A stretch of DNA of 64,000 nt. Source: an uncultured Armatimonadetes bacterium. GTDB taxonomy: Bacteria; Armatimonadota; UBA5829; DTJY01. This document shows positions 44,901 to 50,900 of the stretch, in pieces (within the stretch, counting starts at the first letter, position 1; every line of letters begins with the position of its first letter). The position numbers were made by a program. Location of the stretch: NCBI GenBank assembly GCA_963717145.1, contig OY970325.1, forward strand, positions 4,480,001 to 4,544,000. Direction: 5' to 3'.

Positions 44901-47900
44901 GCCATCCTGCGCGAGGACCCGGATGTCATCCTGGTGGGTGAAATGCGAGACTTGGAGACCATCGCCGCGGCCCTGACCCTGGCGGAAACCGGTCACCTCG
45001 TGTTCGGCACGCTGCATACGAGGAATGCGCCCCAGACGATCGACCGCGTCGTCGACGTATTCCCGGCGCATCAGCAGGACCAGATCAAGGTCCAGCTCTC
45101 GAACACCCTCGAGGCGGTCGTCGCCCAGCAGCTCATCCCGAGAGTCGGGGGCGGACGTTATGCCGCCATCGAGATCATGGTCGCCAATCCGGCGATCCGG
45201 AACCTCATCCGGGAAGGCAAGACGTACCAGATCTACTCCTCGATCGAGACGGGCGGCCAGTTGGGGATGCAGGCGATGGACCGCGTCCTGGCGGATGCGC
45301 ACAGGAACGGCGCCATCAGTTTCGAGGAAGCCATAAGCAGGGCGATAGATCGCGACAACTTCAGCCGGCTACTGAACGGCGGTTGATCACCCGTAGGGGC
45401 GGTGCTTCTACGCCCGCCCGAGACGGGAGGCCGTTGAAGGCCTCCCCTACGGCACGAGCCGAGACGGGAGGCCGTTGAAGGCCTCCTCTACGGCACGAGC
45501 CGAGACGGGAGGCCGTTGAAGGCCTCCTCTACGGCACGAGCCGAGACGGGAGGCCGTTGAAGGCCTCCCCTACGGCACGAGCCGAGACGGGAGGCCGTTG
45601 AAGGCCTCCCCTACGGGGCAAGAGATGACTGGAAGGGAAAAGCAACATGTCCACATTTGCATATACGGCGGTTGATCCGTCAGGCAGGTCCGTCAGGGGC
45701 AAGATAGACGCCGACAATCAGCAGTTGGTGCTCTCCAAGCTCCACGACCAGAAGTACCACGTGCTGGAGATCCGCGAGTCCGGCAGAGGCCTCTCGGTTC
45801 TCTCCGGATTCAACAAGTACAAGAAGCTGAAGCTCCAGACGCTCGTCGTCTTCAGCCGTCAGTTTGCCACCATGATCGACGCGGGCATCAGCATCATCAA
45901 GTGTCTCGACATCCTGGAGAACCAGACGAAGGATGAGGTCCTCAAGCCGGTCATCGGGCAGTCGATGCGCGATGTCAAGAGCGGAATGAGCCTCACCGAT
46001 GCGTTCGCCAAGCACACGAACGTGTTCTCGAAGCTCTATGTGAACATGATCCGTGCGGCGGAACTCGGTGGCGTGCTGGACGCCGTCCTGGACAGGCTCG
46101 CGGGTTTCCTCGAGACCGAGATGGAGATTCGGACGAAGATCAAGTCCGCGATGATGTATCCGATCATCGTCCTGATCTTCTCGTTCCTGATGATCTGCGC
46201 GCTCTTCCTGTTCGTTCTGCCGAAGTTCAAGGAGATCTTCACCAGCATGAACGTCGAGATGCCGCCGGCCACGCGCCTGCTTTTCGACGGCGCCTCCTTG
46301 TTCAAGGCCTACTGGTACATACCGTTCGGCCTGATTGTGGGCGGCACGATCTTCATCCGGTGGTATGGCAAGAAGCCGCAGGGACGATTCCACATAGATT
46401 TCCTTAAGTTGAAGGCGCCGATCGTCGGCGACATTGTGCAGAAGATGGCGATCTCCAGATTTGCCCGCACGTTCGGCACTCTCGTGAGCAGCGGCGTTCC
46501 GATGATGCGAGCGCTCGAGATCGTCGGCGAGACGTCCGGCAACTCGGTCATCTGCAAGGCGATCGAAACGGCGCGCGAGAGTGTCCGCGAGGGGCAGAAG
46601 ATCAGCGCTCCGCTCGAATCGAGCGGCATGTTCCCGACTATGGTGACGCACATGATCGACGTCGGCGAGGAAACAGGTCGCCTGAGCGAGATGCTCATCA
46701 AAGTCTCCGATTTCTACGACAAGGAGATCGACGCTGCTGTGAAGGGCTTGACCTCGATGATCGAGCCTCTGTTGATCGTCTTCATGGGTGTCGTCGTCGG
46801 CTTCATTGCCGTATCGGTCATGGGCCCGATATTCAAGCTCGTCAGCAGCATAGGATAAGTGGTAGGAGGGGTTTTCCGGGATGACTGTGCCCGGTAACCC
46901 CGAAGCCATCGATCGGGGTTACCGGGCACAGTCATCCCGGAAAACCCCTCCTACGTGAAGCATCCGGGGAAGGAATACCGCAGAAGTGGCAAAGGAAAGG
47001 CTGTCAGAGCAAGAAATACATAAACTCCTGGCCGAGTATCTGAAGGACGGCGATATACGCCTCCGCGATCAGGTGGTCCATCAGTACCGCAACCTCGTGG
47101 AGAGCATCGCCCGTCGGTTCGCCAATTCGGCGGAGCCGCTGGAAGACCTTGTCCAGGAGGGGTATATCGGCCTGATCATCGCGGCCGACAGGTACAACGG
47201 CGATAAGGGGGTGAAGTTTTCAACTTACGCCACCCACTTCATCATCGGCCAGATCAAGCACGCGCTCAGAGACCGCGGCAAGATCATCAAGGAGCCTGCC
47301 TGGCTGCAGGAACTGAACTACAGGATGGATGGAGTGATCAACGCTCTCTACCAGGAACTCGGCCGTCAGCCGACGGACACCGAGATCGGGCGAGTCATGC
47401 ATCTCCCCGAGGAGCAGGTGGCGGGTCTCCTGACGACGCGCGAGGTCTTCAAAGTCACATCGCTCGATCTGGATCCGGACGAGAACTCGAACAGCGGAGT
47501 GGATCTGGACAAGGTGAAGGACGACAAGTGCACCACCTTCCAGCTCCCCATCGAGGACAAGATCGTTCTCGAGACGGCGATGGACAAGCTCAAGATCATC
47601 GAGCAGAAGGTCATTCAGGAGTCCTACTACACGGGTTTGAGCCAGACGGAGATCGCAAAGGCGCTCGGCATCTCCTGCAACTATGTTTCCCATATCCTCC
47701 GGAACGGTACCAAGAAGCTCAGGCGGATACTGATCACCGAGGAAGTGAAGGAGACTCAGGTCCAGCGACAACTCGCCAGCCGCAGGTCCGACAAGACCGC
47801 AGAGGACATGGAGTCGGCGGTCGTGGACGCCGTGACCGGGCTATATACCGCCGCGTACATATCCGAACGTCTGCAGGAAGAGGTGAGCCGCGCCTCGCGT

Positions 47901-50900
47901 GCCCACGCAGAGCTGTCGTTTGCGATCCTGGCAGTCGATGACTTCGAGGAGTTCAGGAGCAGGTGTGGTCTGATGCGCACGGAGGATATCCTGTACGCGA
48001 TGACGGGCATTCTCAAAGAGGCGGTCCGCAAGTGTGACATCATCGGCAGGCTCGGAGATGCCGAGTTTGCGCTGATCATGCCGTATACCGGTCAGCAGAG
48101 CCGCAAGGTCTGCGCTCGTGTCTGCAAGGCGCTCACTCAGGCCACATTCGAAACGACGAGGAATGCCCCGGCGGCGCAGTTCGAAGTCCACTCCGGCTGC
48201 TCGGTGTATCCGTCCGACGCGCGATCGGCCCGCAAGTTGATCTCGTTGGCGCGAACGGAACTGGAAAGGGTCATCCCGATCGAGCTTCCCAAGGCGGCTT
48301 AGGGAATGGTTGATGGCTGATGGGGAATGGTTAATGGCGGAGCATCCCCCATTAACCATTCCCCATCAGCCATCAACCATCAGATGTCATGTCCCACCAC
48401 TCGCGGAGCTTGTCACGGCTGTGGTAGAGATACTCGCGATCGCCCGCGAAGACCTCCAGAGTGATCGTGCGGTCATATCCCACACGCTTCAGGATGTGAA
48501 TCACCCACTTCCAGTCGATCTTCCCGACCCCCAGTGGCAGATGCAGGTCGAGGTTGCCGCCGTTGTTGTCCGAGAAATGCACGTGTCGGAGTCTGTCGGC
48601 GAAAAGCGATGCCAACTCAACGGTCATGTTGTGCTCGTTCTCGAGGTTCGCGTGACCGACGTCGAGGTGGAATCTGAGGTCCGGCACGGCTGCGAAGACC
48701 TCTGACAGGTCTCTGGGCGAGTTGAAATTCGGCGGCATGTTCTCCAGCATCAGTTCGAGGCCCGACTCTCGTGCCTTCGCGCTGAGGTGGCGAAAAGCGT
48801 CGATGTTGGACTCCCGGATCCAGCGGTTATCGTGGAGCGGCGCCCGGATGAATGGATGGATGTTGACGAACTCGGTCCCCAGTTCGCCGAAGATCAGGAT
48901 GTCACGCTCGATCTCCTGTATGGCCGCCTCACGAACCTCGGGCATCGGAGTCGCGATCGGCAGGTAGTACGCGGTGTGGCCGACGATCCCGAGCCCGGCA
49001 TCCTCCAGCGCTCTCTTGACATCCGGCACCGAAAGCGTGCCCGAGTACGCCTTCTGCGGCTCGAGCGTCAGGTCGATGAAATCGAACCCGGCGTCGGCGA
49101 AGGATCGGATCTCACCGACTACGTCGTGCATCGGATGGTTCATCGCACCGATTCGCATCTCTACTCCTCAGTCTCCGCGCCCCTCCTTACGAAGGAGGGG
49201 CCGGCCAGCAGGCCGGGGGAGGTTCGCTTGGCGATCTTGGCTTCTTCCTTGAAAACGCTGGTTCGGGCGGATTTGTAATCCAGCCCGCATTGGCAATCTG
49301 GGGATCTGTGATCCTGCGACGGCCGGGATGGCATCACAGATGCCGGTTTGCCATCGGGTGCTGGATTACAAATCCGCACCAACCAATGTTCTCATCCGCT
49401 GCTATGAATGGTCCGCCTGGCGATCTTGGCGTCTTGGCGGTTCCAACTCTTGGGCCGCGGACGCAGAAACCCCCTCGGCCCAGAGGCCGGTCCCCCTTCG
49501 TAAGGGGGACATCTCCGTCGCCACGATGTCCCCTCTTGATGGGGACATCTCAGAGCGGTCTCGAATACATCCACGGGTCGAGGACCGCCTCGCGGACCGG
49601 CTCGTCCTCCGACGGCTTGTGCGCCAGCTTCCTCCGCAGAAGCTCCTCGCGCATGGAGTCCGGCGCCTTCCACGACTCCGACGGGTACGTCCAATCATAC
49701 AGCACGATCAACGACAGCAATACCGGCCAGTTGTCGCCCAGTTTCTCCACCACGTAGCTCCAGTCGAGCCGGTCGCCGACACCTCGTATGATCTGAAACA
49801 CGTCCGGCCAGTCCGAGCGCTGGTGGTTCAGCGTGAACACCTTGGAGAGCACCAAGTCCTCAGCCGCCATGAAGCGCACCGGAATGCCGAGAAACGTCCC
49901 ATCCGATCCGCGCTCGAAGAACGAGCCGTTCAGGCTCACGACGTGGTTCGGCGGCTGCCAGATCACGTCCATCAGCGTGCCGTCCTTCATCGCATGGTAG
50001 ATCCACTCCCGGTCGCCTGCGGCCTGCTCGCCGAAGTCACGAAATCCGGCGTTCGAGAGCACCTCGACCGCGTTCGGCACGTATCCGCGCTCGATGTAGA
50101 CGTCGAGGTCATTGGTGAACCGCCAGACGCCGCTGTAGTGGTGCATCGCGAATGCGCCGCCTATCGCATATGGAAGGCCGGCTTCGTTCAGAGCGGTGAG
50201 CGCTTCGCGGAACACGCGCTTGCTCTCCTCAGGGATCGTCACCTGCGCGGGCAAAAGGCTCTGCTGGGTCCGCACCCTCGTCATGCACTCAGGTTACCCG
50301 GCCCGCGAGTTGCGCGAAACCAGCACCCCGATCGCTTGCCCGCAGGAGTTTCCCCTTGAAAGCATGAACGATACAACAGATGGCGTAGGGGCGAAGCATT
50401 GGCTGCCGCGTACCTTTGAGTTTCGGATCCCGGCAGCCAATGCTTCGCCCCTACAGGAGCGTAAACCACCATGAAACTCATCCCTTTGATCTTTGCACTG
50501 ACCATATCCGCCGTCGCGGCCCAGGATCTATCGAACGGCCACTTCCAACTTCATGCGCAGAATGGCTGGTTCGACGTGATGCGGTTCGATCCGTCCGGTA
50601 AGGGCAAGTATGGCGACAATCTGATCAAGGCACTGTACATCGGCGAGAAGCCGGATGGGAATCGCCGACTGGAGTCGCCTCCCACATCAGAGGGGAACAG
50701 CCTGTCCTTCCGCGGCCTTCCGGTCCGAAGCCCATACACGGTCGAGCACACCGACAGCTCGCATCCCTTCCAACTCACCCCCGGCACGACTCTCGGCGCC
50801 AAGTTCACGGTCAAGTCCGGGAAGATCACCCGCGCGGGCGGCAAGTTCCCGACCTGGGGCGAGCCCGATTCCGCCTGCACGCTCTCGATCTACCGCCTCC

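What a model noticed while it worked through the whole genome (the two positions that open the first line are those of the whole stretch)
46986..48302. Armatimonadota sigma factor fused to a degenerate GGDEF domain with an invariant c-di-GMP RxxD site
g03994 is a SigB/SigF-type sigma-70 factor (regions 2, 3, 4) fused to a C-terminal GGDEF domain that has lost the catalytic motif but keeps the RxxD c-di-GMP binding site. It is a single-copy gene across Armatimonadota and closes the pilB-pilT-pilC operon: a predicted one-component c-di-GMP-sensing sigma factor.
Evidence so far: Pfam Sigma70_r2/r3/r4 at 31-246 and GGDEF at 278-428. Full-length match in 57 of 101 phylum genomes, one copy in 56; 859 homologs at E 1e-40, the best 120 all with GGDEF plus sigma domains. 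RxxD present in 120 of 120, an intact GG[DE]EF in 0 of 120; pilC directly upstream in 12 of 29 relatives. No paper found.
(Added by a program. Inside this text positions count along the whole contig: contig position 4,480,001 is position 1 of the stretch shown here. "Call 12" and the like, gene names such as g00115 and contig names such as C1 are that model's own, and its searches are not shown. The text may have been shortened before it was handed on; [...] marks where a part breaks off. The agent that wrote the report below was given it as the finding of a first reader that could run no searches.)

Follow-up and report, generated by a model that had tools for sequence, protein, structure and literature searches.

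The report
Sigma factor carrying c-di-GMP sensor domain
Many Armatimonadota bacteria have a gene-activating protein (a sigma factor) joined to an enzyme domain that has lost its catalytic site but kept its binding site for the messenger c-di-GMP, and it probably switches pilus-subunit genes directly in response to that messenger.

Summary
Real. One 438-aa frame joins a SigB/F-type sigma-70 to a GGDEF domain without catalytic residues. In 96 orthologs from 32 families the only invariant GGDEF residues are R348, D351 and R378, which align with PleD's c-di-GMP site; R302 (PleD R313) is kept in 95. It is not strictly invariant: 7 of 75 distant representatives lack the first Arg. About 200 of 301 phylum genomes carry it, directly after pilC in 62 of 95 loci. 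All 43 fusion genomes tested have other GGDEF proteins; 13 of 27 without it have none. New here: a candidate target promoter, T(G/C)T(G/C)A-N14/15-TRTGGAANAA, before the major pilin gene and a small LuxR-type gene. It occurs in genomes where SigB or sigma-28 was not found, and was missing in 5 genomes lacking the fusion. The pil operon itself has a sigma-28-type promoter, probably read by another sigma. Best reading: a one-protein c-di-GMP-sensing sigma factor for pilin expression, more likely turned down by c-di-GMP. Binding, direction and target promoter are all inferred. No paper on it in six searches.

The parts
46986..48302 (+). Sigma-70/degenerate GGDEF fusion gene, 438 aa, GTG start
47076..47282 (+). 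Sigma region 2 (aa 31-99); region 2.4 has His92 where this genome's SigB has Arg and its flagellar FliA Asp
47331..47495 (+). Sigma region 3 (aa 116-170)
47577..47723 (+). Sigma region 4 (aa 198-246); recognition helix SCNYVSHIL, unlike SigB's SQMHVSRL
47676..47798 (+). Predicted continuous helix (aa 231-271) from the region 4.2 recognition helix towards the GGDEF domain; linker length varies 32-74 aa among orthologs
47817..48269 (+). Catalytically degenerate GGDEF domain (aa 278-428)
47889..47891 (+). R302 = PleD R313, the residue given by the partner domain in the allosteric site
48027..48038 (+). RxxD motif R348/D351 = PleD R359/D362
48054..48068 (+). GDAEF in place of GG[DE]EF
48117..48119 (+). 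R378 = PleD R390, third residue of the primary site
48294..48299 (+). C-terminal Ala-Ala, a possible Clp degron (50 of 96 orthologs; 126 of 4419 genome proteins)
   Evidence: degron role recalled
45647..46858 (+). pilC, the usual upstream neighbour
44184..45386 (+). pilT
42452..44173 (+). pilB with MshEN domain (NF053729 above cut-off, but SIG in place of RLG)
36943..42344 (+). pilM, pilN, pilO, 213-aa ORF, secretin pilQ
36764..36792 (+). Sigma-28-type promoter candidate of the pil operon (CTCCA ... GACGATAAT)
46862..46954 (.). REP-like perfect hairpin (42-nt arms) between pilC and the fusion gene; 42 arm matches in the genome

Best explanation
A group-3 sigma factor that carries its own c-di-GMP receptor. 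SHOWN: intact sigma regions 2-4, dead active site, conserved four-residue allosteric site, linkage to type IV pilus genes. INFERRED step 1 (about 85%): the GGDEF domain binds dimeric c-di-GMP made by the cell's other cyclases. INFERRED step 2 (about 75%): the sigma recognises T(G/C)T(G/C)A-N14/15-T(A/G)TGGAANAA promoters and drives the major pilin gene, further pilins and, in many families, a small LuxR-type regulator, while a non-flagellar sigma-28 transcribes the assembly operon that contains the fusion gene, giving a two-step cascade. INFERRED step 3 (about 60%): c-di-GMP turns the sigma down, by cross-linking two GGDEF domains (RxxD/R378 of one chain, R302 of the other) so that region 4 cannot engage RNA polymerase and/or the C-terminal Ala-Ala is offered to a Clp protease.
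For: Only three GGDEF columns are invariant in 96 orthologs of 32 families, and they map to PleD R359, D362, R390; R313 equivalent 95 of 96 (site defined in PMC7288161; model aa 278-433 superposes on PleD 289-445, Z 22.4, rmsd 2.1). Catalytic positions scattered, e.g. Asp at the D327 column in 16 of 96. 43 of 43 fusion genomes have at least 2 GGDEF matches at E<=1e-25; 13 of 27 without it have none. Promoter matrix trained on 15 non-own pilin sites ranks the own major pilin (22.0) and a LuxR-type gene (21.0) first among 3241 upstream regions; antisense best 15.6. LuxR-type best hits, not used in training: 12 of 13 fusion genomes outscore all 5 genomes without it (exact P 0.0008, kin not independent). 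In single-contig G187, 9 of 13 pattern matches also fit two unqueried positions, against 4 of 46 in four other genomes. Motif present where SigB was not found (G138, G049, G136) and where no FliA/WhiG-type sigma was found (G187, G032, G178, G058); absent in G012, G047, G073, which keep SigB and a FliA/WhiG-type sigma but lack the fusion. Direction: relatives that lost the site (6 scanned) or the whole domain (f32) keep sigma regions, so the ligand-free form is probably the active one.
Against: No binding or expression data. Pilins of fusion-positive G026, G184 and G175 score low (0.6-10.9), and f8 genome G046 shows no pattern excess (2 of 22), so the regulon is not uniform. Linker length varies and holds prolines in several families, against a rigid lever. 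The model gives no fixed domain arrangement (pTM 0.45). R313- and R390-type Arg are common in active cyclases too (2 of 4 other GGDEF domains of this genome keep all four). Ala-Ala ends occur in only 13 of 32 families. The four genomes in which the motif was first seen are from two related families.
Confidence: 0.68

Rival explanations
1. Same receptor, opposite sign: the ligand-free GGDEF domain holds the sigma back and c-di-GMP releases or activates it, raising pilin for surface attachment.
For: The recognition helix runs straight into the linker helix; the DxxT turn (D281 92 of 96, R355 82 of 96) that couples helix to domain in cyclases (recalled) is kept; PelD is an I-site receptor required for activating polysaccharide synthesis (PMC10333796).
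Against: Lineages with a decayed site keep an intact sigma, which a permanently blocked protein should not; in WhiG-RsiG c-di-GMP blocks the sigma (PMC8325347 abstract; listing) and in Myxococcus it lowers pilA transcription (passage in PMC12871210).
Confidence: 0.25
2. The fusion is the sigma that reads the GCCGATAAT promoters of the pil operon, HD-GYP and GGDEF genes, in a feedback loop.
For: The motif precedes the first gene of the fusion's operon (pilM 5 of 6, pilC-first 10 of 25, lone fusion 15 of 75; reverse-strand 0, 1, 5); genome-wide excess over shifted spacing is 1.59 in 153 genomes with fusion plus FliA-type sigma, 1.20 in 53 with FliA-type alone; G073/G047 sites are mostly in long frames.
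Against: Excess is only 1.21 in 22 fusion genomes without FliA-type sigma and 1.01 in 27 f8 genomes; sampled sites in three f21 genomes are mostly in long frames (26 of 30); both -35 classes seen (TAAA, CTNCA) are published WhiG promoter types (PMC12871210); G012 has the site before pilM without the fusion.
Confidence: 0.12
3. The GGDEF part is a relic or protein-docking domain (for a cyclase or the pilus motor, FimX-like); the conserved residues are structural or bind another ligand.
For: Site lost in 7 of 75 distant representatives and domain lost in one family; these Arg are common in GGDEF domains.
Against: The three invariant columns are exactly the ligand-contacting ones while core residues drift at 29-40% identity; co-occurrence with other GGDEF proteins.
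Confidence: 0.12
4. The TGGAANAA promoter belongs to the canonical SigB or to an ECF sigma, not the fusion.
For: The -10 resembles SigB/F-type promoters (recalled; SigF GGTAA in PMC2758279); G187, G032, G178, G002, G058 all have SigB; ECF sigmas were not surveyed.
Against: Present in G138, G049, G136, where no SigB was found among region-3 sigmas; absent in SigB-positive G012, G047, G073.
Confidence: 0.12

Closest known systems
WhiG-(c-di-GMP)2-RsiG switch of Streptomyces and Rubrobacter
   Same: c-di-GMP controls a group-3 sigma; in Rubrobacter the targets are type IV pilus and cyclase/phosphodiesterase genes (PMC8325347, abstract and section 14 read)
   Different: There a separate anti-sigma binds the ligand through an E(X)3S(X)2R(X)3Q(X)3D motif and the sigma is sigma-28; here sensor and sigma are one chain, the sensor is a GGDEF allosteric site and the sigma is SigB/F-like
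Cyanobacterial SigF
   Same: Group-3 sigma that directly transcribes the major pilin gene from its own promoter type (PMC2758279, passages); NF005644 is among the two best NCBIfam hits
   Different: Score 161 against cut-off 261; SigF has no GGDEF domain (recalled); its promoter TAGGC/GGTAA differs from the candidate found here
Degenerate GGDEF I-site receptors PopA and PelD
   Same: Dead active site, kept RxxD, used as c-di-GMP receptors (PMC10333796, PMC12564702, passages); PopA links the signal to ClpXP proteolysis
   Different: Outputs are proteolysis of another protein or polysaccharide synthesis; neither is a sigma factor
SigB with RsbW/RsbV
   Same: Closest solved structure is S. aureus SigB (8x6g, E 1.6e-26); regions 2, 3, 4 without region 1.1
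   Different: The genome has a separate SigB in an rsbV-rsbW-sigB cluster; the fusion's sigma part groups apart from SigB and has other recognition residues
ECF sigma factors with C-terminal regulatory extensions (e.g. ECF41 SnoaL, ECF42 TPR; recalled)
   Same: Sigma and regulatory domain in one chain
   Different: Group 4, no region 3, and no second-messenger domain that I know of; one search combining these terms with GGDEF found nothing

Membership tests
Group 3 sigma-70 factor | Regions 2, 3 and 4 present, no region 1.1 | tested here: met
   region 2 starts at aa 31
Group 3 sigma-70 factor | Binds core RNA polymerase and starts transcription | not testable with these tools
   region 2.2 D54 and G62 invariant is indirect only
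SigB/SigF/SigG (TIGR02980) or cyanobacterial SigF (NF005644) | Score above curated cut-off | tested here: not met
   162.5 < 234.35 and 161.3 < 261
SigB | rsbV/rsbW neighbours | tested here: not met
   one RsbV-like hit about 9 kb away in 178 loci of 2-21 kb, some from the same genomes
Active diguanylate cyclase | GG[DE]EF and metal-binding Asp | tested here: not met
   0 of 120, 0 of 77; GDAEF and Ala316 here
Degenerate GGDEF I-site receptor (PopA/PelD kind) | GGDEF fold | tested here: met
   Z 22.4, rmsd 2.1 over 155 residues to PleD 2v0n
Degenerate GGDEF I-site receptor (PopA/PelD kind) | RxxD at canonical spacing plus R390-type Arg | tested here: met
   96 of 96; 68 of 75 and 68 of 73 in distant representatives
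Degenerate GGDEF I-site receptor (PopA/PelD kind) | Measured c-di-GMP binding | not testable with these tools
   needs a binding assay
WhiG-RsiG switch | Sigma-28 clade sigma | tested here: not met
   TIGR02479 101 < 189.6; outside the sigma-28 rows in the tree
WhiG-RsiG switch | Separate RsiG anti-sigma | not tested
   no conserved small neighbour seen, but RsiG itself was not searched

The most novel reading that the evidence does not exclude
A sigma factor that is itself a second-messenger receptor, with no anti-sigma: c-di-GMP binds the fused dead cyclase domain, dimerises the sigma and gates both its activity and its Clp-dependent turnover. It would be the second tier of an old, phylum-wide cascade (non-flagellar sigma-28 -> pilus machine, c-di-GMP enzymes and this sigma -> pilin and a LuxR-type regulator) whose products share C-terminal Ala-Ala tags, i.e. 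an undescribed developmental or cell-cycle programme in Armatimonadota.
Probability: 0.3. Interest if true: 0.9.

Novelty: new variant of a known kind. Interest (0 to 1): 0.78.

Why it matters
The c-di-GMP control of sigma factors found in the papers read works through an anti-sigma. Here the receptor is built into the sigma, conserved across a little-studied phylum, and comes with a predicted promoter and targets, so binding, sign and regulon can each be tested with one purified protein. It also gives a specific regulatory circuit for type IV pili in Armatimonadota.

Tried and rejected
Complex prediction of two copies of aa 186-432 with c-di-GMP: no verdict. RNA runs: none listed. Earlier scan findings: not open. 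Frameshift or chance fusion: rejected (one frame, same architecture in 32 families). GCCGATAAT as the fusion's own promoter: pursued, not supported in genomes lacking FliA-type sigmas; an apparent f8 site lay inside the coding sequence. The CTNCA-class count was too noisy to use. Search of pilM upstream regions was confounded by pilM paralogs and upstream genes. Longer fused forms: none at E<=1e-25 (weak). Plasmids: no match over 80% of the protein. Outside the phylum: the 80 loci shown of 293 GTDB hits are named Armatimonadota groups or unnamed bacteria; 213 were not shown; the three best Atlas clusters are mostly Armatimonadota. Conserved neighbours other than pilus genes: none convincing. 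The careful tree did not finish; the quick one is used. No cyanobacterial SigF sequence was at hand for the tree. ClpX was not found by a simple motif; this is not evidence of absence. Literature: searches returned no paper; one search returned 7 and one search returned 6 general c-di-GMP papers; subscription journals are not covered, and supplements were not read, where domain-architecture tables could list the fusion.
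Full report
OBSERVATION. Window 46986-48302(+) is one 438-aa frame. Pfam gives sigma-70 r2 31-99, r3 116-170, r4 198-246 and GGDEF 278-428. The best NCBIfam models are SigB/F/G and cyanobacterial SigF, both below cut-off. It ends a same-strand run pilM-N-O-ORF-pilQ-pilB-pilT-pilC, 127 bases after pilC; that gap holds a repeated perfect hairpin, so co-transcription is not shown.

DISTRIBUTION. Of 301 phylum genomes I classed 175 as carrying the fusion by best E-value (1e-52 or better, outside families f8 and f32; the best SigB matches inspected were near 1e-43 to 1e-45); 150 match places were listed and about 25 of the 175 were not inspected one by one. Family f8 has a longer, divergent form in 25 of 27 genomes. 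Twenty f32 genomes score like a short form; the two read are 260 and 284 aa without GGDEF and nest inside the fusion clade. It was not found in 79 other genomes. Handle searches gave one full-length copy per positive genome. The 80 loci shown of 293 GTDB hits are Armatimonadota or unnamed; the Atlas clusters agree.

THE GGDEF DOMAIN. I aligned 96 full-length orthologs from 32 families: the 30 best loci, 60 picked by hand across families from the 150 listed, and 6 from handle searches. In aa 278-428 only R348, D351 and R378 are invariant; R302 is Arg in 95. The predicted model (pLDDT 87, pTM 0.45) superposes aa 278-433 on PleD 289-445 (Z 22.4, rmsd 2.1), and a one-residue gap before R378 is seen against DgcR. 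This maps the four to PleD R359, D362, R390 and R313, which a review names as the allosteric site for dimeric c-di-GMP, R313 coming from the partner domain (PMC7288161, passages; same in PMC12943098, passages). Catalytic columns are scattered; GG[DE]EF occurs in 0 of 120 close homologs and 0 of 77 representatives. Against strict invariance: 68 of 75 representatives keep the first Arg, 73 the Asp, 68 of 73 the R378 column. The own genome has four other GGDEF domains, two GGEEF and two AGDEF, and six HD-GYP motif matches. In 80 hand-picked genomes, all 43 with the fusion have at least two GGDEF matches at E<=1e-25, the 10 f32 genomes have two each, and 13 of 27 without the fusion have none; kin are not independent.

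NEIGHBOURS. pilC lies directly upstream on the same strand in 62 of 95 loci with at least 700 bases upstream, in 18 of 32 families. In f7, f23 and f26 pilin genes follow directly. No other conserved neighbour stood out, and own-genome RsbW, RsbV and two FlgM-like proteins gave one distant RsbV-like hit in 178 loci.

PROMOTER 1 (probably not the fusion's). CGA(T/C)AAT precedes the first gene of the fusion's operon in many families. In the own genome CT-N19/20-(C/A)CGAYAAT lies before 36 genes (15 on the antisense and 15 on a shifted control): pilM, pilins, HD-GYP/GGDEF genes, an FlgM-like and a STAS gene. Observed over shifted-spacing counts (tallied): 1.59 in 153 genomes with fusion and FliA-type sigma, 1.21 in 22 with fusion only, 1.01 in 27 f8, 1.20 in 53 with FliA-type only, 0.99 in 26 with neither, 1.06 and 1.30 in the 14 and 6 f32 genomes. 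The counts do not name the owner. The motif equals published sigma-28/WhiG promoters, including both -35 types (PMC8325347 section 14; PMC12871210 passages), and the genome has a non-flagellar sigma-28 beside prsA-like genes. I assign it to that sigma by inference.

PROMOTER 2 (candidate target). Between the fusion and the following pilin, six f23/f26 loci carry ATCTCA-N14/15-T(A/G)TGGAATAA and the f7 locus a variant. Orthologs of the own major pilin in other families carry TGTGA-type variants. A matrix from 15 hand-read, non-own pilin sites, run over 3241 own upstream regions, put the major pilin (contig 3311519-3311902, 22.0) and a LuxR-type gene (1246404-1246667, 21.0; Pfam GerE) first; the best antisense score was 15.6. 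Untrained pilin regions scored 17.0 (G180), 17.7 (G144) and 17.5 (G011) against a null 99th percentile of 12.4; G012, which lacks the fusion, scored -3.6, 5.8 and -1.1; but fusion-positive G026, G184, G175 and G153 pilins scored only 0.6-10.9. For the LuxR-type best hits 13 fusion genomes scored 23.7, 22.7, 17.7, 17.2, 16.8, 13.6, 12.3, 9.0, 8.6, 7.8, 7.7, 6.3, -0.5 and five genomes without it 4.8, 4.7, 1.7, -2.9, -3.8; two of those five hits group with a paralog whose copy in fusion-positive G153 scores 11.9. Five more genomes had only distant hits and seven none; they were not scored. In G187, 9 of 13 pattern matches also fit two unqueried bases, against 4 of 46 in G230, G073, G046 and G138; two of these four carry the fusion, so this test is positive for G187 only. 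Genes downstream of the G187 sites include a second pilin-type gene, a MerR-type regulator, a ParA-type ATPase and a HEAT-repeat protein. The motif is present where SigB was not found (G138, G049, G136) and where FliA/WhiG was not found (G187, G032, G178, G058), and absent in G012, G047, G073, which keep both. ECF sigmas were not surveyed. Cyanobacterial SigF is a precedent for a group-3 sigma that directly reads the pilin promoter (PMC2758279, passages).

MECHANISM. Shown: anatomy, selective conservation, gene linkage. Inferred: c-di-GMP binding (about 85%), ownership of promoter 2 (about 75%), inhibition by c-di-GMP (about 60%). For inhibition: relatives with a decayed site keep sigma regions 2-4 (six scanned) and f32 has dropped the domain, so the ligand-free form is likely active; R302 allows PleD-type cross-linking; WhiG and Myxococcus pilA point the same way. 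The model shows one helix from the -35 recognition helix towards the GGDEF domain, but linker length runs from 32 to 74 aa, so dimerisation or partner recruitment fits better than a rigid lever. Fifty of 96 orthologs (13 of 32 families) and 114 of 120 close homologs end in Ala-Ala, against 126 of 4419 own proteins; 15 of 36 promoter-1 genes do too, 8 of 27 after removing one paralog family. Ala-Ala as a ClpXP tag is recalled knowledge; PopA shows an I-site receptor tied to ClpXP (PMC10333796, passages).

COMPARISON AND NOVELTY. It works like WhiG-RsiG folded into one chain, with a PopA/PelD-type sensor and a SigF-like job. It is not an active cyclase, not WhiG and not canonical SigB (membership table). 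Searches found no paper; searches listed 7 and 6 general papers, of which I read passages in three with no such fusion; searches were for background. Other listed papers were seen only as listings, and no supplements were read. Each part is of a known kind; the combination and the promoter were not found in print. Verdict: real, new variant of a known kind, interest 0.78.

Noticed in passing
window 46862-46954, 48306-48380, 45500-45633, 49250-49394: Several REP-like hairpins and a 41-nt triple repeat between genes; arms recur across the genome (42, 27 and 111 matches of 25 nt or more for the first three).
   Followed up: partly
G000:C1:3299294-3300085: Non-flagellar sigma-28 beside prsA/mazG-like genes, with close orthologs in other families; likely owner of the GCCGATAAT regulon (pili, HD-GYP/GGDEF, STAS, FlgM-like), recalling Rubrobacter WhiG.
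   Followed up: partly
G000:C1, e.g. 460274-460951, 1065068-1065733, 2876927-2877604, 3015059-3015733: About a dozen dispersed paralogs of a 215-233 aa protein, many with a sigma-28-type promoter and an Ala-Ala end; not annotated here.
   Followed up: no
G000:C1:1246404-1246667: Stand-alone 87-aa LuxR/GerE helix-turn-helix protein, conserved in many families, with several paralogs; candidate third tier of the cascade.
   Followed up: partly
G000 proteome: C-terminal Ala-Ala is frequent among flagellar, HD-GYP and sigma-28-promoter gene products, suggesting targeted proteolysis of this programme.
   Followed up: partly
G000:C1:272981-273751: Flagellar FliA reads LDAKK where FliA usually has LDELR (recalled); G230's ortholog has LDAIK.
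   Followed up: no
window 42452-42620: PilB MshEN scores above the c-di-GMP motif cut-off but lacks the RLG Arg, as do most orthologs near the fusion; binding doubtful.
   Followed up: partly
L324:5882-7560, L338:4915-6209: An MglA-like small GTPase plus DUF4388 gene precede pilM in f7/f23/f26/f42; an AAA ATPase plus helix-turn-helix gene precede it in f13/f35/f37.
   Followed up: partly
G000:C1:278876-279700 upstream: The flagellin gene has a TGTGGAATAA element 91 bases upstream but no matching -35.
   Followed up: no
G000:C1:3306727-3307946 and 3292876-3295686: EF-Tu-like and a second housekeeping gene appear in several short frames, probably assembly errors.
   Followed up: no
P0203 cluster, L097: Sigma-only relatives with the same His-bearing region 2.4 form a sister group; one cluster is labelled Actinomycetota, and G037 has one beside its pil genes.
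   Followed up: partly
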